DNA from: a virus
DNA: 64,000 nt
Virus record (IMG/VR): IMGVR_UViG_3300017708_002392
Coordinates: 5,943-69,942 of that record
Reading direction: 5' to 3' (one strand)
The notes beneath the pieces are model-generated. The model was given only the letters and a program-made list of their open reading frames with translations. It was not told the origin of the DNA and searched no databases. Positions 8,142 through 61,944 of the stretch are shown here, one piece after another (position 1 is the stretch's first letter; every line of letters starts with the position of its first letter). A program made the position numbers and the translations under genes.

Positions 8142-8290
8142 CGATAGTTGCTTAAATGTTTTCGTACCAGTGACTCTCGAACATTGGTCCAAAACCGTGT
8201 CTGCCATTCGGTCTTTGCGGTCAGGACCATCTGTTCTGCATTTGATATCCGTAGATCGGATAATCTAAACTGCGATAGCAATTTCTTCAT
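8138..8290 (-). CDS. small hypothetical protein (50 aa; below the ORF track cut-off)
   Basis: MKKLLSQFRLSDLRISNAEQMVLTAKTEWQTRFWTNVRESLVRKHLSNYR*; fills the gap between 8265..8600 and uvsW. Confidence 0.55.
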   Translation of the reverse strand: MKKLLSQFRLSDLRISNAEQMVLTAKTEWQTRFWTNVRESLVRKHLSNYR

Positions 8291-8600
8291 TCACTTGCTC
8301 TTGAGCAACTACGTCTGCTTGTGCTTGTACATCAGCAGTGATTTGGTTAGTAGTCTTTGTTGCAATACCTGTGAATCTTGTAACAGTGCCGTCTACTAAT
8401 ACTTTGAATGAACCAGCAGTTTTCCAAGTGACTGAAGCATCTTCTTCTGTGTGCATTTTCTTTACTACACCGTTGATTGTTCCTTCAGCAGTTGTTTTTC
8501 CTGTGATAAATTTGAATGTGCCTGAACGTCCTGCATATGTGGTTCCTTCAGTACATATAGTTTCTTGTATTTTATCTAATACTAATTGTGCGTTTGTCAT
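8265..8600 (-). CDS. hypothetical protein
   Basis: 111 aa; TTGACG-17-TATAAT promoter at 8637-8665 and AAGGT SD-like site. Confidence 0.8.
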   Translation of the reverse strand: MTNAQLVLDKIQETICTEGTTYAGRSGTFKFITGKTTAEGTINGVVKKMHTEEDASVTWKTAGSFKVLVDGTVTRFTGIATKTTNQITADVQAQADVVAQEQVNEEIAIAV

Positions 8601-8684
8601 TTGTTGTTACCTTTATAGTTGGTTATTAATAATACTATTATATGGTATTTTTCCAAATGCGTCAACCAGTTGTAAGTGCTTGAT

Positions 8685-9260
8685 CTAGTTGAGGAAATCC
8701 ATACCCACATACAGAGATAATCTTGTGTGAGCAGATGAATTAGGTTTTACTCCGTGTAATTGAGACTTATTATTTTGCATCAAATACCCTGTGTTAAAGT
8801 TGTAGTCAAAATTATAACGTTCAGATCGGTCCATGTGGTAAAATGTTGTGCCGGATTGTCCTTCATTTTTTCCTAGATATATTTGCAAAGCAACATCTGG
8901 TCTGGGATTTTCATCACCATCAATATGTTCTTTCATTGCAAATCCAGGTTCGTCATACCATATACGTGGAACATGTAATAATGTATCTCGTTCAAAAAAC
9001 TTAGTAAAGTATGTTTCAATATATTCCCCATTTAGATATTCTGCCATTTTGTAAAACGAATGTGAAGAAGGACAAGTGTTTGCATCAATTACTCCACGTG
9101 GAAAATTTTCTTGTTGTCCTTGCACCTGCCAATTGATATTATCAATTGATAGATCAAGCAATAATTCTTGTGTGAACATTTCTTCGACTAAGAATAAATC
9201 TTCAGCTGAATCAACGGCTGTAATTTTCATTTTATTTTTTTGATTTGGTGGTTTTTCCAA
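8685..9260 (-). CDS. 2OG-Fe(II) oxygenase
   Basis: HID (HxD)...LQIYL...GTTF...LHGV...RLSL, the 2OG-Fe(II) DSBH pattern. Confidence 0.8.
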   Translation of the reverse strand: MEKPPNQKNKMKITAVDSAEDLFLVEEMFTQELLLDLSIDNINWQVQGQQENFPRGVIDANTCPSSHSFYKMAEYLNGEYIETYFTKFFERDTLLHVPRIWYDEPGFAMKEHIDGDENPRPDVALQIYLGKNEGQSGTTFYHMDRSERYNFDYNFNTGYLMQNNKSQLHGVKPNSSAHTRLSLYVGMDFLN

Positions 9261-9594
9261 TATTTGTTTTGAGAAAGTCTAAAAACCACGGATTGTCTTT
9301 GAACACTCCGATCAACCAATTGGAAAGAGAGTTGGTTGTTTGTTCTTCTGCATCTTCATCTTTGAGCGGACCACCTGGTTGATTTAATGATGAATGATAC
9401 ACAATAGCATGTATAACTTCGTGCAATAATGTGTTAGCAAGATCATCACCTGCAATTTCTTCCTGCAATTCTATCTTGTTTTCTCTATTCAAATATTGGC
9501 CGTAACAATCTGTGTTGTCTTTTTTGAATGAGGCTTTTACATAGTCTATATTGATGTCTTTCCAGCCTACTTTAATGTTTGTTGGTTTGCTCAT
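9232..9594 (-). CDS. small HEXXH zincin-like metallopeptidase
   Basis: TLLHEVIHA plus downstream EE, ImmA/IrrE-like mini-zincin. Confidence 0.75.
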   Translation of the reverse strand: MSKPTNIKVGWKDINIDYVKASFKKDNTDCYGQYLNRENKIELQEEIAGDDLANTLLHEVIHAIVYHSSLNQPGGPLKDEDAEEQTTNSLSNWLIGVFKDNPWFLDFLKTNIGKTTKSKK

Positions 9595-9647
9595 ATTATA
9601 TGTGTATTTAATTAATTGTAACTTATTGCACTGACATTGTCAAGACA

Positions 9648-10628
9648 CTAATCTTCGCGGTGTAATGGCAGTGTAATACAGGTCAATCCAGATCCAAAGA
9701 AATGGCTATGCTCAAAATTCACAAATTCTATATCAAAATTGTGCTGTTCTAAATTTTGTATGAAGTTTTTTTGTAGTTTTTTTGATGTGTCTGTCATTAA
9801 AATTGTAGACTGATCTATGCTCAAACTATTCACTGCTAACACAGAATTTTCTTGGTCATCATCTTGCAATCTGCTGTCTATGAATTCTGTTGGTTGCGTA
9901 ACATGATCAACCTGAATAAATGACCAATTGTCAAAGTAAGCGGGAAAATCTTCTTTGGCATGAAACGTTGCAACTACTCCGGGTCGCAATATGTTGAAGT
10001 GACAGTCTAGGTGCCCTGCAAATTTTGTAGGATCCATTTCAATAAATTTTTTACCTGGCAAAATATTTTTCATCCATTCGTAACCTAAGTCGTTGCTGGC
10101 CCCCACCATGCTGACAAAAACATAATCATCATGAATGTACAAACAAGGACCATCGATGATAGGATCTAAATTTGGTATATCTTGATCCATAAGATCTATT
10201 TCATTCACATCATGCAAAGGCATTGGCATAGTCAGCCAATTGTTGCCTTCTGCCAGTGCAGAACGCATTATGTCTCTCCAATACATGCCAGTAAAAGATG
10301 CTTCCTTGGTCCAACTTGCTGTTTCTATTATTGTGTTGTCTACAACAAAAAAATTATCTGCAGGATTCAAAGGAATTCTATGCCCTATGGTATCAAAGTA
10401 TGGTGTGACTAGTTTTTTATCACAGTTTAAACTTTTTGGACGAAATATTTTTACACCTAATGTTTCTAATTTATTTTGTATTTTATCAAGATCGACTTCT
10501 GCACGTTCAAGCATCACTTGAAGTTTTGTTTTTTTGTATTCATCCATTTGAGACAACACACTAAAATCAACGTTGCCTAACATACAACTTTTAAGTTTTT
10601 CGTAATGATTATGTATTTTAATTTTCAT
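9648..10628 (-). CDS. amidinotransferase (pentein superfamily)
   Basis: LETLGVKIFRP, GHLDCHFNILRPG (catalytic His) and C-terminal FFGSGLTCITLPLHRE (catalytic Cys). Confidence 0.8.
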   Translation of the reverse strand: MKIKIHNHYEKLKSCMLGNVDFSVLSQMDEYKKTKLQVMLERAEVDLDKIQNKLETLGVKIFRPKSLNCDKKLVTPYFDTIGHRIPLNPADNFFVVDNTIIETASWTKEASFTGMYWRDIMRSALAEGNNWLTMPMPLHDVNEIDLMDQDIPNLDPIIDGPCLYIHDDYVFVSMVGASNDLGYEWMKNILPGKKFIEMDPTKFAGHLDCHFNILRPGVVATFHAKEDFPAYFDNWSFIQVDHVTQPTEFIDSRLQDDDQENSVLAVNSLSIDQSTILMTDTSKKLQKNFIQNLEQHNFDIEFVNFEHSHFFGSGLTCITLPLHRED

Positions 10629-12789: not shown

Positions 12790-13481
12790 CGCCAGTGCTC
12801 CATTATTGTTGGATCATGTTTTATATCGCCCGGATCAGGTTTGCCGTGAAACACAGCTACACAACAATCATTAGGAATCGATGCATTACGTATTTTGTCG
12901 TTAGGGCGCCTTTGATCTTCCTTCATTAAACCTATTTCCCATTTGTAACTCATTATCCAATCATGTGGCCACATGCAAGAGTGCGGACGTTCTGCAGTCA
13001 CATAGTTTTGATCTCCTTGGTATGAGCTTTGTATTTTTGTTGGATTGTTTTTGAACTTGTGCCACATGTCAACTTCATTGCCTGCAAAAAATTTCATCAC
13101 AGATGAATTACGCACTTGATAATCTTTGATTCTGCATCTGTTGAAGTCTTGTATGATCACAAAAGCATCACCTTCAAACTCCCACAGGTGATCTATATTT
13201 TTCAGTATTACAACATCCAGATCCATAAAAATTACTGTGCCTTCTAACCCTATGTCATCTCTAAACATATGCACTTTATTCCACCAGGACTTGTATAATG
13301 GTGCAATAACAATTTGTTTAATGTTGGGATCATATCCTATTTTGTTTGAATCTGTAATCACATGAAATCGCACATCAGTTGAATTTCTTTTAACCATATT
13401 GTATAGTGTATTCACATAACTTGGTGGATACTTGTTCCCTGTGCATACACAAACAAAACTCTTTATCATATATGTGACCAT
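12786..13481 (-). CDS. GT-A fold glycosyltransferase (GT8-like)
   Basis: GNKYPPSYV, WWNKVHMF, FMDLDVVI (DxD), NSSVM, GDQNY and VFHGKPDP; true start may be the M of MIKSF. Confidence 0.85.
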   Translation of the reverse strand: MVTYMIKSFVCVCTGNKYPPSYVNTLYNMVKRNSTDVRFHVITDSNKIGYDPNIKQIVIAPLYKSWWNKVHMFRDDIGLEGTVIFMDLDVVILKNIDHLWEFEGDAFVIIQDFNRCRIKDYQVRNSSVMKFFAGNEVDMWHKFKNNPTKIQSSYQGDQNYVTAERPHSCMWPHDWIMSYKWEIGLMKEDQRRPNDKIRNASIPNDCCVAVFHGKPDPGDIKHDPTIMEHWR

Positions 13482-20155: not shown

Positions 20156-20780
20156 TTACTTTTCCTGCCACTTGTAAGAATTGATTGCGTGAAAAAAACT
20201 GTATGTCACGGCCCCATTCTTTACAAGCTAATAATTCATGATTCCAAACATTTTCCCATTTTGCTAAATCGGCCTTCTCAAAAGCATGAAACTGTCCAAA
20301 CACTATTATAGTGTCATTTGTAATGTTGTCATCCAATGCTTTCAAAATTTGTTGTGCTGATTTATAGTAGTTGGAATCTATATGCAAAAAACTTATTGGT
20401 TGGTTGTGTTGAGCAACAAAGTCTGGCAATGTGTTTTCAAACAATCCACTCCAAAATATTTGTGTGTCGTCTGATTCTGGAATAGTTTTAGCGGCAAGAT
20501 GCGGCCCAGTCTTTTCTGGTTCTACCAATCTTGCAAGTTGCAATGGCCACGGCAATCCAGTCCACGAGTCGAACCCATGCACCACGTCCGCATATTCTTT
20601 GATCACATTGAAAGTGTTTCTATCTCTCACGCCAAACTCTAAAAACAAGTTTTTTGTTGTGACCTGTTCTAGTGCGTATCTTAAATGTTGCACAACATCT
20701 TTGTTTGGAAATACTTTTATGTTAGAAATTGTATGATTTGCAAACCAAGTGTCTGCATCATTTTTTGATAATGGACCCAT
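20148..20780 (-). CDS. TylF/MycF-like sugar O-methyltransferase
   Basis: FLEFGV, HGFDSWTGLP, GLFENTLP, ISFLHIDSNYYKS, IIVF. Confidence 0.8.
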   Translation of the reverse strand: MGPLSKNDADTWFANHTISNIKVFPNKDVVQHLRYALEQVTTKNLFLEFGVRDRNTFNVIKEYADVVHGFDSWTGLPWPLQLARLVEPEKTGPHLAAKTIPESDDTQIFWSGLFENTLPDFVAQHNQPISFLHIDSNYYKSAQQILKALDDNITNDTIIVFGQFHAFEKADLAKWENVWNHELLACKEWGRDIQFFSRNQFLQVAGKVNE

Positions 20781-21171
20781 GTACTCTCACTCTTATGTGA
20801 CCGTTGTAGTAATCATCTGATTCCAGCACACCTCTAGCAAACTGTTCTTTTGCTTCAAGATAATTGCATTCGCCTTTGGATTTGCATAGATGAATTATTT
20901 CTCTTTTGAATTGTTCTTTGCCTAGTTTGTTCACATCTTCTGTTAGCAAGTCACTTGAACCATAATAGTCTTGCCAGTCACTTTCTACTGTGTGCCTGCG
21001 TTTGTTTTTCCTGCCTTTGAGTGGTGGCCTTGATCTTTTGAATTTGGCTAATTTTTTACCCACATACATTCGACCTGTGGTGGTGTTGGTTATGAGATAC
21101 ACAAACCCTACTACACCGTCAGGTAATGCTTCTACTGGTTCTCCTTGATATGTCCAATTGACTTTTGTCAT
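20758..21171 (-). CDS. stand-alone GIY-YIG nuclease domain protein
   Basis: GFVYLITNTTTGRMYVGKK...YYGSS...FKREI...YLE...YYN. Confidence 0.85.
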   Translation of the reverse strand: MTKVNWTYQGEPVEALPDGVVGFVYLITNTTTGRMYVGKKLAKFKRSRPPLKGRKNKRRHTVESDWQDYYGSSDLLTEDVNKLGKEQFKREIIHLCKSKGECNYLEAKEQFARGVLESDDYYNGHIRVRVHGSIIKK

Positions 21172-21193
21172 GCTTTATTTTATTATATACTAT

Positions 21194-21724
21194 ATGCATG
21201 ATGCCACACAACCAGTAATCGATAGTATTCTCCAGTGGATGGAAAAGTTTGTAGAAGTACCACATCCATCATTTGGTAACATGCCTCCATGTCCTTATGC
21301 ACGGCAATATCGAGTGCAAGACAAGATCAAAATTGTACAAGCACCTTTGCATGCCGGCAATCCGCCTGATATTTGGCAGACTGCTGAACAAGTGTTTGAA
21401 ACATGGAACGATGACTTTGAAGCCATTATTGTGGCACGTGAAAACGTGGCCCGTCAATATAACAGTGCAGAAATGGTATCGGCTCAAATTACAGAATTAA
21501 ATGACAAATACAAATCGAAAGATTTAGTTGCCTTGGAAGATCATCCAATGGATCCCGAAGAGATTGACGGCGTACAAATGAACCATGGCGGTTTAATTCT
21601 TGTTGTGATTCAACGTTTGAGCAAGATAAACAAACACTCAGAGATGCTTAGAGGTGGAGAATACTACGACAAGTGGTCAAAAGAGAATTTAGATGATGTA
21701 GTCAATTGGCGTTTTAAGAAATAG
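21194..21724 (+). CDS. DUF1415-like hypothetical protein
   Basis: Likely start MHDATQ at 21194; WMEKFVE...PPCPYA and DHP motifs recall DUF1415. Confidence 0.55.
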   Translation: MHDATQPVIDSILQWMEKFVEVPHPSFGNMPPCPYARQYRVQDKIKIVQAPLHAGNPPDIWQTAEQVFETWNDDFEAIIVARENVARQYNSAEMVSAQITELNDKYKSKDLVALEDHPMDPEEIDGVQMNHGGLILVVIQRLSKINKHSEMLRGGEYYDKWSKENLDDVVNWRFKK

Positions 21725-21902
21725 ACTTCAATGCTTCTAATTTGTCCATAGCTGTTGCAAGTACATCCAATTTCTTTTCAGCAGTGGCAACATAATCAAT
21801 ATGTTCTGCAACACCTATCTGCTTTTCTAAAAAAATATTAAGATCTACTTTGGCAACTTCTATATCGCCTTCTAGTTTTTTTATTAGTGCTTCTTTAATC
21901 AT
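21714..21902 (-). CDS. small hypothetical protein
   Basis: 62 aa with IGVAEH motif; overlaps the upstream ORF. Confidence 0.75.
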   Translation of the reverse strand: MIKEALIKKLEGDIEVAKVDLNIFLEKQIGVAEHIDYVATAEKKLDVLATAMDKLEALKSIS

Positions 21903-22086
21903 AACTTATCTCACAAAAAAATTCAAAACCTGTTAGACCAGGTTCATCTATAAATGTTTTGACTATTTCTACTTTGTTTTCATAGATATAATCTTCGCAT
22001 GTTGCCAATGTATCGAATTGAATCGGCAAATCTGTAATTGTAATAAATCCGGCATACACATACATTATACTCATAAACCAATACAT
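21895..22086 (-). CDS. small hypothetical protein
   Basis: 63 aa with hydrophobic N-terminus and F.TLATC motif; AAGGAG SD. Confidence 0.7.
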   Translation of the reverse strand: MYWFMSIMYVYAGFITITDLPIQFDTLATCEDYIYENKVEIVKTFIDEPGLTGFEFFCEISYD

Positions 22087-22181
22087 ACAGTCTCCTTTTT
22101 GCTATTGCAAACTATTTGCAATACGTGTTTCACAAGAAAAGGAAACACATGGTTTCCTTCTTAATTGTACTTATAAAAAAT

Positions 22182-22859
22182 TTACAATTGGATCTTGAAA
22201 TCAATATCCTTTTGAATAGCCTCTTTGTAAGTATCTGTGTCGTCACTCCAGTCTTTCCCGTTCCACCATTCAAATCCAGGTATGGATGCTTTCCATTTGC
22301 AAGATTTATCGTAACTGGCTCCTAGATAGAACCATTCATAACCTAGTTCATGTGCATGATGTATTTCGTGCCACAGACTGTATTTGCCCAGTTGCAGTTT
22401 GAAGTCAGCATAGTTCCATGCCATTTGCCAGTTGTCTAAACTTTTGCTGTAAGTGGTCCAAATGGAAAATCCTATTAGATCATTTTTCAATCTGTACAAC
22501 CACACAGTGTCTGCATGGCCAATGTCTTCTAGTGGGTTTGGTTCCAACATGGTATATCCGTGATGATCAAGATATGCTTCATATACAGGCATCAATTGAG
22601 GCATCATTAATTTTGCTTCCAGACCATAAATTTTTTCAGCAATTATGTCAGGGTCAGTTTTTGGTTTCTTTGCTTTTTTGATAAATTTTTCTATGTTGAT
22701 TCTCACTACACGAACTTGTTGCCATGCATCTTCTAATTGTATAAAACCTTGTGCCAATGCTTCGTCTGATTCCTGGGGATGTACGTCTGCCCACACTCTC
22801 ATAAATTGTATGTCTTGTTGATCCAGTTTGCCAAATAAATGTTCATACCAAATTTTCAT
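22182..22859 (-). CDS. aminoacyl-tRNA-protein transferase-like (ATE1/Bpt C-terminal GNAT-like) protein
   Basis: Likely start MKIWY at 22859; WNY...LQLGKYSLWHEI.HA.ELGYEWFYLG.SY..S..WK resembles ATE_C; EALAQGF resembles ATE_N. Confidence 0.7.
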   Translation of the reverse strand: MKIWYEHLFGKLDQQDIQFMRVWADVHPQESDEALAQGFIQLEDAWQQVRVVRINIEKFIKKAKKPKTDPDIIAEKIYGLEAKLMMPQLMPVYEAYLDHHGYTMLEPNPLEDIGHADTVWLYRLKNDLIGFSIWTTYSKSLDNWQMAWNYADFKLQLGKYSLWHEIHHAHELGYEWFYLGASYDKSCKWKASIPGFEWWNGKDWSDDTDTYKEAIQKDIDFKIQL

Positions 22860-22876
22860 GTGTAAGTATCCTGTAT

Positions 22877-23224
22877 ATGGATATCTATCACATTTTTGCA
22901 GATCACCATCCTGAAGTGGATTCATATGAATTTGCTGACAAGATGAGAGCATTTCTAGATGGCATGGTGAGTCTAGGAAAAATGCAAAGTTACAGATTGA
23001 CCAGAGCCAAACTGGGATTTCGTTCTATGGATCTTCCAGAGTTTCATGTGATGATGGAATTTGAAAACATGCAACAACTGGATGACGCAATGACTTCTGT
23101 GTTACGCAACGAAAAAAGTATTGACGAAAAACATGTCAACTTCAATCAATTGGTTGATGGTGAAACCATACAACATTTTCTATATAGAGACTTTCCGGAT
23201 CAGATCGACGACAGTAAATCTTAG
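22877..23224 (+). CDS. DUF6614-like dimeric alpha/beta-barrel protein
   Basis: MDIYHI...YRLTRAKLGF...EFHVMMEF..MQQLD.A...LYRDFPD; family recalled from memory. Confidence 0.6.
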   Translation: MDIYHIFADHHPEVDSYEFADKMRAFLDGMVSLGKMQSYRLTRAKLGFRSMDLPEFHVMMEFENMQQLDDAMTSVLRNEKSIDEKHVNFNQLVDGETIQHFLYRDFPDQIDDSKS

Positions 23225-23235
23225 GTCGGTATAAT

Positions 23236-23570
23236 ATAGTTGTGCAAGGCAATCAAGGCACTTCAAAAAAAATCTTAGGCAACATAACGTCTCCGAACAC
23301 AGCGAACTACTCTGTAACAACAGCGGCGAATCGCTTGACGTCTAATATTCATACGGTATCTACGTTTACCACCGCGTAGTGTAAAAAAAGCGAGACCATA
23401 GGTTGGTATAATCCTCCGTTGCAACAATGTCTCTGGATGCTTGGCTGTGCGACTCACATCAAGAAAAACATTCACCTGGCAACAGGTGGATACTGACTTA
23501 ACAATCTACATCAAGCAACGGCATTTTAAAATGCTCGAGTGCAAACGAAGAGCGATTGACGTAGTCAATC
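23236..23570 (+). ncRNA. candidate structured non-coding RNA (or origin-like element)
   Basis: ~335 nt with no credible ORF, downstream of TATAAT (23230-23235); several hairpins, a GCAA tetraloop and G-U pairs that favour the + strand. Confidence 0.5.
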
Positions 23571-23571
23571 T

Positions 23572-23799
23572 TTACTTGTCGTCCACTTTGTGAGCATCAT
23601 ACTCACTCATAAAATCATTCAATGTTATATCCGCACGTCTTAGATCTGTGTGTTTTTCAAAAAAGTCAAACAGCAAATTTGCACACTCTTTGGGAGAATG
23701 TGTCATCAACATCTTTTGTAGCACATAGTTGGTTTTGTTTCTGCGTTGTTCAGTGTTCAACACCGCATGTTTGGGAACAGGAGCAAAGTCGTTCTTCAT
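23572..23799 (-). CDS. hypothetical protein
   Basis: 75 aa ORF between the non-coding element and 23842..24282. Confidence 0.65.
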   Translation of the reverse strand: MKNDFAPVPKHAVLNTEQRRNKTNYVLQKMLMTHSPKECANLLFDFFEKHTDLRRADITLNDFMSEYDAHKVDDK

Positions 23800-23841: not shown

Positions 23842-24282
23842 TTAAAAATTTTGTTTCTTCTTGGCAAACTGTTTGCCGAACCCGCCACCTTTTAGGCCTT
23901 TATTTTTGAACTCTTTTTCTTTGGCGTTGATCTGATCAATCATTTGCGACAACAATCCACGCACATATTTAGAGTTGGGTTTTCCATTTTGCACAATTTT
24001 GTCTGGTTCAACATTCAAGCCAAAACTTTTGATACCTGCCTTTTTGCCCACTTCTTCGGCCCAATCAGCAAAAAATGGAGCCACTGCTATGTCAGGATTA
24101 TCATTCAACTTTGCATTAAGTTTTTTGTTGAAATCATTCAACATGGTTTCCATGTCTTGCAATTTTGCTGTGAGTGGAATGGGTCCCTTTAGTGTATCTC
24201 CAGCTTGCCCAATACCTTGTGCGGCTCTGCCTAGTGCGGCACCAACTCTGGGATCATATTCAAATAGGTCTAATAGTTTCAT
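23842..24282 (-). CDS. putative internal head protein
   Basis: TATAAATA late promoter 5 nt upstream; N-terminus MKLLDLFE resembles a gp21-cleaved propeptide. Confidence 0.6.
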   Translation of the reverse strand: MKLLDLFEYDPRVGAALGRAAQGIGQAGDTLKGPIPLTAKLQDMETMLNDFNKKLNAKLNDNPDIAVAPFFADWAEEVGKKAGIKSFGLNVEPDKIVQNGKPNSKYVRGLLSQMIDQINAKEKEFKNKGLKGGGFGKQFAKKKQNF

Positions 24283-60840: not shown

Positions 60841-61944
60841 ATGGTAAAACCATTTGACGTAACAAAGTTTAGAAAAAATATTACAAAAAGCATCGATGGC
60901 CTTGGCATAGGATTTAATGATCCTACAGATTGGATTTCAACAGGCAATCATGCATTAAATTATTTGATATCAGGAGATTTTTACAAAGGCATTCCGTTAG
61001 GAAAAGTAACAGTGTTTGCAGGAGAATCTGGTTCTGGAAAATCTTATATTTGTTCAGGTAACATTATAAGGGAAGCACAAAAACAAGATATATTTGTTAT
61101 TCTAGTAGATTCGGAAAATGCACTTGATGAAGCATGGTTAAAAGCAGTAGGTGTTGATACATCAGAAGAAAAACTGTTAAGACTAGGAATGAGCATGATT
61201 GATGATGTTGCAAAAACAATATCTAATTTTGTTAAAGAGTACAGAGCAGATTATGGCGACAAAGATCCAGCAGACAGACCAAAAGTACTATTTGTTTTAG
61301 ATTCACTAGGCATGATGATGACTCCTACAGATGTTGATCAATTCAACAAAGGTGACATGAAAGGTGACTTAGGTCGTAAGCCTAAAGCATTAACGGCACT
61401 GGTAAGAAACTGTGTTAATATGTTTGGTACATTAAATGTTGGAATGGTTGCAACTAACCATACGTATGCATCACAAGATATGTTTGATCCTGATGACAAA
61501 ATATCGGGTGGGCAAGGATTTGTGTATGCATCAAGCATTGTTGTAGCAATGAAAAAATTAAAACTAAAAGAAGATGAAGCAGGCAATAAAATTACAGATG
61601 TAAGAGGTATTAGAGCGGCCTGTAAAGTTATGAAAACAAGATTTGCAAAGCCTTTTGAAGGGGTGCAAGTCAAGATTCCATATGAAACAGGCATGGATCC
61701 TTATTCAGGACTTGTTGATCTGTTTGAAAAGAAAGGCCTAATTACACAACAAGGCAACAGATTGAAATATATAACTGCAGATGGTAAAGAAGTTCTTGAT
61801 TACAGGAAGGCTTGGACCGGCGAGAAACTAGATATTGTCATGCAAGAGGTAAGTAACCAAGTTGCTATCATTGATGATGCAGAAACAAACGATTTAGAAG
61901 AGGCAGTAGAAACACAACAAGATGGAGATTCAGATGCTAATTGA
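60841..61944 (+). CDS. uvsX: RecA-like recombinase UvsX
   Basis: AGESGSGKS, DSENALD, LDSLG, TNHTY, SGGQGF.YASS, K.MKTR. Confidence 0.95.
   Translation: MVKPFDVTKFRKNITKSIDGLGIGFNDPTDWISTGNHALNYLISGDFYKGIPLGKVTVFAGESGSGKSYICSGNIIREAQKQDIFVILVDSENALDEAWLKAVGVDTSEEKLLRLGMSMIDDVAKTISNFVKEYRADYGDKDPADRPKVLFVLDSLGMMMTPTDVDQFNKGDMKGDLGRKPKALTALVRNCVNMFGTLNVGMVATNHTYASQDMFDPDDKISGGQGFVYASSIVVAMKKLKLKEDEAGNKITDVRGIRAACKVMKTRFAKPFEGVQVKIPYETGMDPYSGLVDLFEKKGLITQQGNRLKYITADGKEVLDYRKAWTGEKLDIVMQEVSNQVAIIDDAETNDLEEAVETQQDGDSDAN

What the first reader, a model, noticed from the sequence alone, without database searches (positions are those of the whole stretch)
23230..23570. ~335-nt structured non-coding element: candidate novel phage ncRNA or origin
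Seen: this is the largest ORF-free gap in the window, starts just after TATAAT and is GC-richer than its flanks. Local stems: AGCGG-cgaa-TCGCT (23322-35), CTACG/CGTAG (23360-79), GAGAC/GTCTC (23392-433) enclosing two small hairpins, TTCACCTG-gcaa-CAGGTGGA (23471-90, GNRA loop), the palindrome GCATTTTAAAATGC (23521-34) and GATTGAC-gta-GTCAATC (23554-70). A long-range CACAGC/GCTGTG pair (23298-303 with 23444-49) closes a multi-branch domain. ACATCAAG flanks the GNRA hairpin as a direct repeat, and AGGCA occurs three times at the 5' end. G-U pairs work on the + strand, which favours an RNA. It does not look like a tRNA, and I recognise no Rfam family. It lies at the accessory/morphogenesis boundary, so an origin or packaging site is the alternative.
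Basis: partly seen in the sequence, partly recalled or inferred. Interest (0 to 1): 0.72.

Follow-up and report, generated by a model that had tools for sequence, protein, structure and literature searches.

The report
Twin-box structured RNA gene, jumbo phage
The gene-free gap encodes a real, intricately folded RNA of about 330 bases, a short member of a large and mostly uncatalogued RNA family of uncultured giant phages; it shows the same eight-letter word twice, and its job is still unknown.

Summary
The gap 23225-23571 holds a real non-coding RNA gene on the + strand, about 23242-23575. It has a TATAAT promoter and ends in a terminator-like hairpin.

Evidence:
- Homologues: 90 hits in 199 fetched loci, then 27 in 106 more. 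All are from uncultured T4-like jumbo-phage contigs.
- Compensatory base-pair changes support the 5' three-helix domain, the hairpin between the boxes, and the 3' tail. The window itself is in all three alignments.
- No ORF is conserved.
- No Rfam family matches.

The hallmark is an 8-nt word, ACATCAAG, present twice (23456-63 and 23508-15). The word differs between relatives but stays identical within each RNA.

The closest catalogued relative is the orphan motif Polynucleobacter-1 (RF01718). The motif itself is absent here. Bacterial RF01718 RNAs, however, continue into the same twin-box core and 3' tail. A cultured relative exists in Agrobacterium phage Atu_ph07.

Function is unknown. My best guess, about 0.35 and unproven, is a trans-acting RNA that presents two copies of a specificity word to a partner not yet found. 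Origin and decoy readings are not excluded.

This scan has found the same family before on other DNA.

The parts
23208..23235 (+). Promoter-like site: ACGACA, 16 nt, TATAAT. It predicts a start near G23242.
   Evidence: 10 of 12 matches. An A/T-rich -10-like box sits at the same distance before the conserved GTGC start in relatives. Inferred; no 5' end was mapped.
23242..23286 (+). 5' leader, mostly unpaired and A-rich, with three AGGCA motifs (23247-51, 23256-60, 23277-81).
   Evidence: Relatives carry two to four AGGC(A) copies. No helix is predicted here.
23287..23341 (+). 5' domain of three stacked helices. P1: 23287-91 with 23337-41. P2: 23301-05 with 23331-35. P3: 23310 and 23312-15 with 23320-23 and 23325. 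The conserved junction GGCGAATC is at 23325-32.
   Evidence: (40 sequences, window's own copy L018 as first row): 15 pairs, 99.7% of cells paired against 83.8% in shuffles, 108 double-change cells against 31.5. One P2 pair shows all four Watson-Crick types.
23360..23379 (+). Hairpin CTACG/CGTAG with the loop TTTACCACCG. It corresponds to the second hairpin of relatives, whose loop ends in CCAMC.
   Evidence: Sequence. Equivalent hairpins with other stem letters appear (helices 5 and 6). The window-type stem itself is seen only in 3 near-identical copies.
23392..23433 (+). Long-range helix GAGAC (23392-96) with GTCTC (23429-33), enclosing a stretch specific to the window type.
   Evidence: the other short-form subtype has GTGTG and CAACAC at the aligned places. 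Read by eye across only two sequence types, so support is weak.
23453..23463 (+). Box 1: CTC followed by the word ACATCAAG (23456-63).
   Evidence: The word is identical to box 2. Twelve different words were seen in the family, each present twice in its own RNA.
23470..23491 (+). Hairpin between the boxes (P14): ATTCACCTG, loop GCAA, CAGGTGGAT. It contains one U-G pair.
   Evidence: (28 sequences, window's own copy L018 as first row): 7 of 9 pairs have compensatory changes.
23505..23515 (+). Box 2: TCT followed by the word ACATCAAG (23508-15), 52 nt after box 1.
23533..23553 (+). Closing helix P15 (GCTC 23533-36 with GAGC 23550-53) around a small hairpin (G39-C46, T40-A45) with the GNRA loop GCAA. 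The whole lies inside the conserved motif GAG-YG-YAA-RCGA.
   Evidence: (24 sequences including the window and two RF01718-type RNAs): all 4 pairs of P15 and 1 of 2 hairpin pairs have compensatory changes.
23554..23579 (+). Terminal hairpin P16 (GATTGAC, GTA, GTCAATC at 23554-70) followed by TTTACTTGT. Likely a terminator or 3' end protector. It abuts the stop codon of the convergent ORF at 23572-74.
   Evidence: terminator-like on both strands; 5 of 7 pairs have compensatory changes across the family. Its invariance in the marine clade is partly due to how I searched (pattern).
20758..21171 (-). SegE-like GIY-YIG nuclease gene of 137 aa. In many relatives this gene starts 13-50 nt from the RNA start and points away from it. 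Here three genes lie between them.
   Evidence: Whether it belongs to the RNA's function is unknown.

Best explanation
This is a stand-alone gene for a structured, non-coding RNA of about 330 nt, read from the + strand. It runs from its own TATAAT promoter (start near 23242) to a terminal hairpin at 23554-70.

It is a short member of a family found mainly in uncultured T4-like jumbo phages. Earlier reports of this scan call the family 'twin-box RNA'.

The fold has four parts:
- an open leader with AGGCA repeats;
- a rigid three-helix 5' domain;
- a core in which two near-duplicate modules each expose the same 8-nt word (ACATCAAG) on either side of a conserved hairpin;
- a 3' tail with a GNRA hairpin and a terminal stem.

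How it works is inferred, not shown. I think the conserved fold is a scaffold, and the two exposed identical words are the specificity element. They would pair with two copies of a complementary nucleic acid, or be read by a two-fold partner. That would explain why the word drifts between phages yet stays identical within each RNA.

Odds: about 0.95 that it is a real RNA gene of this family, and about 0.35 for the trans-acting word-display mechanism. The confidence figure given for this explanation is for the whole statement, mechanism included.
For: Homologues:
- blastn and nhmmer hits in protein-anchored loci.
- 90 nhmmer hits in 199 loci, none of them in the 43 cellular-genome loci.
- 27 hits in 106 further loci found with a different, 5'-domain pattern.

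Structure:
- 36 long forms: 88 pairs, 99.5% of cells paired against 95.3% in shuffles; 17 pairs and 136 cells with double changes against 10.2 and 37.6; 0 of 500 shuffles reached these values; slid controls gave 27-50% paired.
- 5' domain, 40 sequences with the window's own copy.
- Hairpin between the boxes: 7 of 9 pairs compensatory.
- 3' tail: 10 of 13 pairs compensatory.

Strand: invariant U-G and G-U pairs would be A-C on the other strand. The promoter and hairpin are in the right places.

Not coding.

A core model built without the window hits 23410-23518 at 24 bits, E 6e-4.

Twin words: twelve different words, each present twice at 50-76 nt spacing behind CTC and TCT. No complementary stretch lies at a constant place inside the RNA, so the words are free. 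Box 1 sits in a hairpin loop in relatives (sequences, read by eye).

Synteny: the RNA always converges on a small ORF, a ~145-aa ORF, a gp26-like gene, a ~700-aa gene and the portal gene.
Against: - No partner was found. The window holds CTTGATGT or its complement 7 times against 5.1 expected, and two of the 7 are the boxes.
- Own words are not enriched in flanks of 84 loci or in five phage records of 82-243 kb. Those records are only 23-55% complete.
- Transcription is not shown. Only low-depth contigs of relatives in oligo-dT marine RNA libraries touch the stretch, and these may be DNA carry-over.
- The single sequence folds no better than shuffles.
- Many core helices never vary, so they say nothing either way.
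- The window type lacks the pseudoknot hairpin of the long forms, so conclusions from long forms may not all carry over.
- Identity of the two words could in principle be kept by copying between the two modules rather than by a shared partner.
Confidence: 0.4

Rival explanations
1. Replication origin with a structured primer RNA. The transcript stays hybridised to its template and primes DNA synthesis, as at T4 oriF/oriG or with ColE1 RNA II.
For: - Cumulative GC skew has its minimum at 22-26 kb.
- From recall, T4 oriF lies in uvsY close to genes 25 and 26, and the RNA here is always close to the gp26-like gene.
- Relatives sit at the edge of integrated bacterial islands, which also need origins.
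- Earlier agents guessed the same.
Against: - The skew switch coincides exactly with the switch of gene orientation, so it is not independent evidence.
- The stretch is GC-richer than its flanks, not an AT-rich unwinding element.
- Box spacing of 50-76 nt is not helically phased, so the boxes are not iteron-like.
- The RNA-type covariation with G-U pairs and a GNRA loop goes well beyond what an R-loop primer needs.
- No read-terminus or start-site data exist.
Confidence: 0.15
2. Counter-defence or mobile-element RNA. The phage copy mimics, or is mimicked by, an RNA of bacterial genomic islands and acts as a decoy or antidote. It would be comparable to the phage pseudo-ToxI RNAs or the RNA anti-CRISPRs (both recalled, not looked up here).
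For: - RF01718-type relatives with the same twin-box core and tail lie in bacterial chromosomes. One is next to a Zorya type I system and an integrase (G057). One is next to a type III restriction-modification pair (G099).
- Only 1 of 33 genomes of G057's family carries it, as expected of a mobile island.
- Fast-drifting words would fit an arms race.
Against: - Only two bacterial loci have wide flanks, and defence genes are common next to any island.
- The genes beside the bacterial RNA (DUF6641, a 224-aa ORF) match no PADLOC model and have no homologue in the phage loci or in this genome.
- There are no tandem ToxI-like repeats, and the phage has no co-oriented downstream gene.
Confidence: 0.15
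3. RNA partner or guide of the neighbouring minimal GIY-YIG (SegE-like) nuclease, which lacks a DNA-binding domain. The two words would aim it at DNA.
For: A 135-157-aa SegE-like GIY-YIG gene starts 13-50 nt from the RNA start, pointing away from it, in L020, L028, L118, L123, L227, L201, L217 and L254. The window has the same gene 2 kb upstream.
Against: - The link is loose. In the window three genes lie between them, and other relatives have an ATE_C-like, an Asp/Arg-hydroxylase-like or an unassigned gene instead.
- Bacterial relatives have DUF6641, not a nuclease.
- No target for the words was found.
- An earlier agent also judged it unlikely (unchecked).
Confidence: 0.08
4. A cis-acting element only: a bidirectional terminator and spacer between convergent transcription units, or an antisense or leader element.
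For: - The terminal hairpin is terminator-like on both strands and abuts the stop codon of the convergent ORF.
- Weinberg et al. 2010 rated Polynucleobacter-1 as probably cis-regulatory (Table 1 of PMC2864571, passages read).
Against: - A terminator does not need 330 nt of conserved, covarying structure with its own promoter.
- In the phages no co-oriented gene follows the RNA.
Confidence: 0.05
5. A small protein-coding gene, or chance structure in a spacer.
For: Mechanical ORFs of 45 aa (+) and 66 aa (-) exist. The single-sequence fold is not significant.
Against: - The 66-aa ORF is confined to 3 near-identical copies.
- The + frame has in-frame stops in relatives.
- Indels are not multiples of three.
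- DNA conservation with compensatory pairs excludes chance.
Confidence: 0.01

Closest known systems
Polynucleobacter-1 RNA motif (Rfam RF01718; Weinberg et al. 2010, Genome Biol 11:R31, PMC2864571; Table 1 passages read)
   Same: About 135 nt downstream of the catalogued 141-nt motif, on the same strand, three bacterial RF01718 RNAs carry several features of this family:
- the ACAGC.AAACCGCCC loop hairpin;
- CTC-word and TCT-word twin boxes around a hairpin (AGCGAAA; GGCGAAAG);
- the GAGCGNRAGCGAA motif inside a closing helix;
- a terminal hairpin.

Support: sequences; core model hits of 19.5, 18.7 and 12.6 bits at the matching place in 3 of 3; the 3' tails of two of them (L318, L319) align with compensatory pairs. 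Both are orphan RNAs of unknown function.
   Different: - The catalogued motif itself is not here. There was no RF01718 match in the window or its genome, in two long forms at E up to 10, in 20 divergent family loci at gathering score, or in 5 whole phage records at E up to 1.
- My 5'-domain model does not hit true RF01718 RNAs.
- So the 5' third differs, and only the uncatalogued part is shared.
- Hosts differ: bacterial islands against jumbo phages.
- The paper's own discussion is in supplements that I could not open.
Unannotated RNA-like stretch of Agrobacterium phage Atu_ph07 (MF403008.1, minus strand, about 489,830-490,250)
   Same: It is a cultured jumbo phage. The stretch has:
- the loop GGGTACAGGACAACCGCC;
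- twin boxes CTC-ATGAAT and TCT-ATGAAT around a long hairpin;
- AGCGTAAGCG inside a closing helix;
- a terminal hairpin.

It lies in a stretch without annotated CDS.
   Different: - The score is weak (17.2 bits, E 0.13 for that genome), so membership rests on features read by eye.
- My 5'-domain model found nothing in it at E up to 1.
- It is not next to the portal module.
GOLLD, ROOL, HEARO, OLE and raiA (large structured bacterial and phage RNAs; properties recalled)
   Same: Large, ornate, conserved RNAs. Several are phage-borne. They were found by comparative genomics before any function was known.
   Different: No sequence or structure match: none of the 4227 Rfam models hit, even at E up to 10. 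From recall, none of these has twin variable words.
T4 replication origins oriF/oriG and ColE1 RNA II (recalled)
   Same: A promoter-driven transcript near the gp25/26 region. ColE1 shows that a primer RNA can be highly structured.
   Different: There is no AT-rich unwinding element. No MotA-type promoter was tested. There is no evidence of initiation here.
PA5oct ncRNA004 (Lood et al. 2020, PMC7318152, Table 1 read)
   Same: One of three PA5oct loci sharing a ~28-nt motif with this family's second hairpin lies inside the RNA-seq-defined ncRNA004 (246116..246734). Another lies about 5 kb before the portal gene, as here.
   Different: Only the short motif matches (17-22 bits). Neither nhmmer over the three motif loci nor the core model over the whole PA5oct record finds the rest of the family's fold there. 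Homology is not established.

Membership tests
Twin-box RNA family of T4-like jumbo phages (uncatalogued; working name from earlier reports of this scan) | 5' domain of three stacked helices with the junction GGCGAATC | tested here: met
   The window's own copy (L018) is the first row. 15 pairs, 99.7% of cells paired.
Twin-box RNA family of T4-like jumbo phages (uncatalogued; working name from earlier reports of this scan) | Same 7-9-nt word twice, behind CTC and TCT, 50-76 nt apart; the word varies between members | tested here: met
   ACATCAAG at 23456-63 and 23508-15.
Twin-box RNA family of T4-like jumbo phages (uncatalogued; working name from earlier reports of this scan) | Covarying hairpin between the two words | tested here: met
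   7 of 9 pairs compensatory. Window 23470-91.
Twin-box RNA family of T4-like jumbo phages (uncatalogued; working name from earlier reports of this scan) | 3' tail: closing helix around the GAG-YG-YAA-RCGA hairpin, then a terminal hairpin | tested here: met
   10 of 13 pairs compensatory. Window 23533-70.
Twin-box RNA family of T4-like jumbo phages (uncatalogued; working name from earlier reports of this scan) | Pseudoknot hairpin CGGG-ACAGCACAACC-CCCG, with the upstream GTTG pairing to its loop (long forms) | tested here: not met
   The window type has no such hairpin. In one search the model's 21 positions there are replaced by 3 nt. One search shows only a remnant in the other short subtype. 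I treat it as a feature of long forms, not of the whole family. The pseudoknot itself was read by eye, not counted.
Twin-box RNA family of T4-like jumbo phages (uncatalogued; working name from earlier reports of this scan) | Place in the genome: converging on small ORFs, a gp26-like gene, then a ~700-aa gene and the portal gene | tested here: met
Polynucleobacter-1 (Rfam RF01718) | Match to the Rfam covariance model at or above 37 bits | tested here: not met
   No match even at E up to 10.
Polynucleobacter-1 (Rfam RF01718) | Homology to the RNA that carries the motif (the part outside the Rfam model) | tested here: met
   The core model hits at the matching place downstream in 3 of 3 loci, with modest E-values (0.008-0.45); the 3' tails of 2 of them (L318, L319) align with compensatory pairs.
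T4-type origin (promoter plus DNA unwinding element) | AT-rich unwinding element downstream of the promoter | tested here: not met
   GC 0.43, higher than the flanks.
T4-type origin (promoter plus DNA unwinding element) | Replication starts at the site | not testable with these tools
   The GC-skew minimum at 22-26 kb is confounded by the switch of gene orientation.
Any family of Rfam 15 (including GOLLD, ROOL, HEARO, group I introns, tmRNA, RNase P) | Covariance-model match | tested here: not met
   ARAGORN found no tRNA or tmRNA.
Type III antitoxin RNA (ToxI-like; definition recalled) | Tandem repeats of about 36 nt directly before a co-oriented toxin gene | tested here: not met
   The only repeats are 8-nt words 52 nt apart. 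The next gene is on the other strand. A tandem-repeat finder was not run.

The most novel reading that the evidence does not exclude
The twin-box RNA is a programmable specificity module shared by giant phages and bacterial genomic islands. A conserved pseudoknotted scaffold holds two copies of a freely evolving 7-9-nt word. These grip two identical sites, for example the two halves of an inverted repeat or two copies of a rival's or host's nucleic acid. The module would thereby direct a nuclease, a recombinase or an immunity or exclusion decision between competing mobile elements. That would make it a new kind of RNA-guided system, unrelated to CRISPR, TnpB omega RNAs or IS110 bridge RNAs.
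Probability: 0.12. Interest if true: 0.92.

Novelty: new variant of a known kind. Interest (0 to 1): 0.7.

Why it matters
Large, highly structured RNAs with unknown jobs are rare. In the past they have led to new biochemistry.

This family is widespread in uncultured jumbo phages, and relatives reach into bacterial genomic islands. Only an unrelated-looking fragment of it has been catalogued, as an orphan motif in 2010. In the held library only that paper mentions the motif (search). A search for jumbo phage plus structured RNA gave 2 papers on other subjects, judged from their listings, and one for jumbo phage plus noncoding RNA plus covariation gave none.

The window's copy is one of the shortest forms. 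It helps to define the minimal core: leader, three-helix domain, two words around a hairpin, and the tail.

Words that vary between relatives but stay identical within each RNA behave like a specificity code. The relative in Agrobacterium phage Atu_ph07 makes that directly testable in culture.

Tried and rejected
- Rfam: gathering score on the whole window; E up to 10 on the window stretch and on two long forms; gathering score on 20 divergent loci. Only chance-level hits.
- blastn against 50,697 phage records: no match for the window stretch or a long form.
- Single-sequence folding: not better than shuffles.
- Expression: one search for runs and one laying. Only Logan contigs of three oligo-dT marine RNA runs and one run of unknown kind were found. 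They had small shares of words, depth 2-10 and 85-99% likeness, so they are relatives. One RNA-library contig (X1) runs from 23266-23344 into the sequence of the other short subtype. Neither transcription, strand nor ends can be read from this.
- Partner of the words: nothing in the window, the flanks, inside the RNA, or in five larger phage records.
- RF01718 was sought and not found in the own genome, Salmonella phage SD-2_S15, five family records, and five cultured jumbo phages (one 13-bit hit in Phosso, dismissed).
- The syntenic stretch of SD-2_S15 showed no related RNA.
- My 5'-domain model found nothing convincing in GAP32, 121Q, Atu_ph07 or Phosso.
- The core-model hit in GAP32 (226021-226141) lies mostly inside the ribonucleotide reductase gene, so I dismissed it. 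So I could reproduce the earlier lead 'relatives in culturable phages' only for Atu_ph07, not for the E. coli or Cronobacter phages.
- A core-model hit at window 24084-24176 (-) (15.9 bits) lies inside the 146-aa ORF and was dismissed.
- The 43 cellular-genome matches to the hairpin pattern were chance; none matched the family profile.
- The genus and family of G057 were searched for more RF01718 copies: 1 of 4 and 1 of 33 genomes, the one being G057 itself each time.
- Not used: structure prediction, complex prediction and the protein atlas. The finding is an RNA.

Limits:
- The marine members were fished with the terminal-hairpin pattern, so that hairpin's invariance there is partly by construction.
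- Supplements of Weinberg 2010, which hold the discussion of Polynucleobacter-1, were closed.
Full report
What is there. The window is a 64-kb piece of a 69.9-kb virus record that CheckV rates 19% complete. It carries T4-type structural genes: portal gp20, a gp26-like hub protein and others. Its portal protein is closest, at 46-54% identity, to those of cultured jumbo phages such as Sinorhizobium phage Phosso, the Pseudomonas PA5oct group and the Asteriusvirus group. I infer an uncultured jumbo phage of several hundred kb. The gap 23225-23571 lies between the stop codon of a DUF6614 gene (+) and the stop codon of a convergent 75-aa ORF.

Checking the observation.
- TATAAT (23230-35) with ACGACA 16 nt upstream is the best promoter-like site of the stretch.
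- The stretch is GC-richer than its flanks (0.43 against 0.36-0.39).
- It is the second longest gap free of ORFs of 70 aa or more.
- On its own the sequence folds no better than shuffled versions (z -1.08 and -0.08). The listed stems prove nothing by themselves.
- ARAGORN and Rfam find nothing.

Relatives.
- Loci fetched through the flanking proteins already showed the gap conserved as DNA. Identity is 99% in one contig and 72% over the full length in two. Others are conserved in blocks.
- A profile of the first alignment then matched 90 places in the 199 loci, none in the cellular genomes. Of these, 77 are full length and 48 unique: 36 'long' forms of about 405 nt and 12 'short' forms of about 340 nt. 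The window type is a subtype of the short forms.
- This search fixes the terminal hairpin by construction. That gave 27 more matches in 106 new loci, among them divergent members with quite different terminal hairpins.
- The larger carrier records are rated 23-55% complete at 82-243 kb, which again points to jumbo phages.

It is an RNA, on the + strand, and not a protein.
- For the 36 long forms RNAalifold predicts 88 pairs. Counting them gives 99.5% of cells paired (95.3% in shuffles). 17 pairs and 136 cells have changes on both sides (10.2 and 37.6 in shuffles), and none of 500 shuffles reached these values. With partners slid by 1-3 columns only 27-50% of cells pair.
- About half of the helices never vary, so they are uninformative.
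- Three further alignments include the window itself or its own genome's identical copy (locus L018):
  - The 5' domain (40 sequences): 15 pairs, 99.7% paired against 83.8%, covariation score 0.466 against 0.144. One pair shows C-G, G-C, U-A and A-U in 11, 11, 11 and 7 sequences.
  - The hairpin between the boxes (28 sequences): 7 of 9 pairs compensatory.
  - The 3' tail (24 sequences): 10 of 13 pairs compensatory.
- Invariant or frequent G-U and U-G pairs would be A-C mismatches on the other strand.
It has no translated match in the other 45 unique sequences.
- The + frame has in-frame stops in several relatives. Indels are not multiples of three.

Anatomy in the window.
- The promoter predicts a start near G23242, where conservation begins.
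- An open, A-rich leader follows, with three AGGCA motifs.
- Then come three stacked helices (P1 23287-91/23337-41, P2 23301-05/23331-35, P3 around 23310-25) with the invariant junction GGCGAATC.
- Then a hairpin at 23360-79, and a window-type-specific stretch closed by GAGAC/GTCTC.
- Then box 1 (CTC+ACATCAAG, 23453-63), the hairpin 23470-91 with a GCAA loop, and box 2 (TCT+ACATCAAG, 23505-15).
- Then a closing helix (23533-36/23550-53) around a small GNRA hairpin inside a conserved purine-rich motif.
- Finally the terminal hairpin 23554-70 followed by TTTACTTGT.
- The palindrome 23521-34 is missing in relatives.
- The long forms add a variable hairpin. They also add a hairpin whose loop (ACAGCACAACC) pairs with an upstream GTTG. 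The variants GTAAG/CTTAC, GTTGG/CCAAC and GTTTC/GAAAC (sequences, read by eye, not counted by a tool) speak for that pseudoknot.
- The window type lacks this hairpin.

The twin words. In every member the same word stands twice, 50-76 nt apart, behind CTC and TCT. I saw twelve different words in my loci: AACGTGATG, AACATGATG, ACATGATG, ACATCAG, ACATCAAG, ACCACAT, GCCACAAGA, GCCACAG, AGCACATA, TGGTAATA, TAATAGT and AAATCAAG. The sequence before each word is also near-duplicated (ATGACTGC). No stretch at a constant place inside the RNA is complementary to the word. I found no excess of the word or its complement in the window, in the flanks of 84 loci, or in five larger phage records. Whatever reads the words is therefore not near the gene, or not in the fragments at hand.

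Surroundings. Downstream, the order is constant: small ORF, ~145-aa ORF, gp26-like gene (all on the other strand), then a ~700-aa gene and the portal gene. Upstream it varies. In L020, L028, L118, L123, L227, L201, L217 and L254 a 135-157-aa ORF begins 13-50 nt from the RNA start and points away from it. Those of L020, L227 and L254 match the SegE-like GIY-YIG family in Pfam. Those of L028, L201 and L217 begin with closely similar residues. Elsewhere an ATE_C-like, an Asp/Arg-hydroxylase-like or an unassigned gene takes this place. In the window, three genes separate the same nuclease gene (20758-21171) from the RNA. T4-type late-promoter-like ATAAATA boxes stand just before structural genes of the window. 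The RNA has a GTATAATA box instead, as have the portal gene and the gene at 60841. I cannot tell when the RNA is expressed.

Earlier findings of this scan. After I had reached the reading 'new structured RNA', the look-ups showed that other agents had met the same family in at least 70 other genomes. They named it twin-box RNA, named Polynucleobacter-1 (RF01718) as closest known, and reported cultured relatives. I treated these as leads and tested them.
- RF01718 does not match the window, its genome, two long forms, 20 divergent loci, five family records or six cultured jumbo phages.
- To see true RF01718 RNAs I searched 151 Burkholderiales genomes. Three had matches of 67-82 bits and one a weak match.
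- My 5'-domain model does not hit them.
- The sequence that follows the motif on the same strand has the family's loop hairpin, twin boxes behind CTC and TCT (AGCGAAA; GGCGAAAG), the GAGCG..AGCGAA motif and a terminal hairpin.
- A core model built from 20 long and divergent phage sequences hits that place in 3 of 3 loci (19.5, 18.7 and 12.6 bits; E 0.008-0.45 in a 121-kb search). It also hits the window, which was not used to build it (24 bits, E 6e-4).
- The 3' tails align with compensatory changes.
- So the catalogued motif is a 5' part of a longer RNA. The uncatalogued remainder of that RNA is related to the RNA here, whose own 5' domain is different.
- Of the cultured phages, only Atu_ph07 showed a convincing relative: a weak score but all hallmarks, in a CDS-free stretch. 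The GAP32 hit lies in a coding region. Nothing was found in 121Q or Phosso.
- PA5oct shares only a ~28-nt motif at three loci, one of them inside the published ncRNA004.

Bacterial context (a side result). In G057 the RNA lies between a DUF6641 gene (divergent) and a 224-aa ORF followed by a tyrosine integrase. A complete Zorya type I system lies just beyond. In G099 it lies between a type III restriction-modification pair and DUF6641 plus DUF6876 genes. A DUF6641 homologue is the divergent neighbour in all 3 loci with enough flank. Only 1 of 33 genomes of G057's family carries the RNA. This looks like a mobile island. Neither DUF6641 nor the 224-aa protein has a homologue in the phage loci or in this genome.

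How it may work.
- Shown: a conserved, covarying fold with its own promoter-like and terminator-like signals, and two free, identical, fast-drifting words.
- Inferred: the fold is a scaffold and the words are a specificity element for a partner acting in trans (about 0.35).
- The origin reading keeps about 0.15. The GC-skew minimum lies at 22-26 kb but coincides with the switch in gene orientation, and the stretch is not AT-rich.
- A decoy or island-related role keeps about 0.15, because of the bacterial context.
- A guide for the GIY-YIG nuclease keeps about 0.08, because the link is loose.
- A purely cis-acting element keeps about 0.05.
- Coding or chance is excluded.

Verdict. A real RNA gene. 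It is a new, short variant of a family that is catalogued only through a fragment which this variant lacks. Function is unknown but now testable in a cultured phage.

Noticed in passing
L326 1330-1760 (minus strand) = MF403008.1 about 489,830-490,250: Agrobacterium phage Atu_ph07, a cultured jumbo phage, has an unannotated stretch with all hallmarks of the family: the loop GGGTACAGGACAACCGCC, twin boxes CTC-ATGAAT and TCT-ATGAAT around a long hairpin, an AGCGTAAGCG motif and a terminal hairpin. A second weak core-model hit at 465,361-465,472 was not examined.
   Followed up: partly
L321 (G057:C4:64000-82000), RNA at about 8230-8718 (-): A bacterial RF01718-plus-twin-box RNA sits in an island: ZorA-ZorB-ZorC-ZorD (Zorya type I), a 138-aa ORF, a DUF6641 gene (divergent), the RNA, a 224-aa ORF without family, and a tyrosine integrase. 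Only 1 of 33 genomes of that family has the RNA.
   Followed up: partly
L322 (G099:C1:640000-659500), RNA at about 9534-9689 (-): A second bacterial copy (weak RF01718 match, 25.8 bits) lies between a type III restriction-modification pair (N6_N4 methylase, ResIII) and DUF6641 plus DUF6876 genes that head a run of same-strand ORFs.
   Followed up: partly
MK797984.1 (PA5oct) 13078-13176, 76289-76391, 246356-246442: Three loci share the ~28-nt motif AAAGGATGNNGCTCTGGTMGAAAMAGA with this family's second hairpin, plus a common upstream box. The third lies inside the published ncRNA004. The second lies in an ORF-poor 0.9-kb gap about 5 kb before the portal gene.
   Followed up: partly
window 25382, 34252, 45772, 51820, 56866, 57498: T4-type late-promoter-like boxes (N)ATAAATA stand 10-15 nt before the start codons of structural genes. 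A different box, GTATAATA, stands before the RNA (23229), the portal gene (27453) and the gene at 60841.
   Followed up: partly
window 21725-22181: This is the longest stretch without an ORF of 70 aa or more (457 nt). It holds only two 62-63-aa minus-strand ORFs. I did not examine it for RNA or conservation.
   Followed up: no
window 21158-21724 (+) and 22182-22952 (-): Between the GIY-YIG gene and the RNA lie a weak DUF6875-like gene (E 6e-4, below Pfam's cut-off) and an ATE_C/GNAT-like gene. The ATE_C-like gene is the direct upstream neighbour of the RNA in the relative L016.
   Followed up: no
window 22877-22952: The mechanical ORFs 22182..22952 (-) and 22877..23224 (+) overlap by 76 nt at their 5' ends. 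The true start of the minus-strand gene is probably further in.
   Followed up: no
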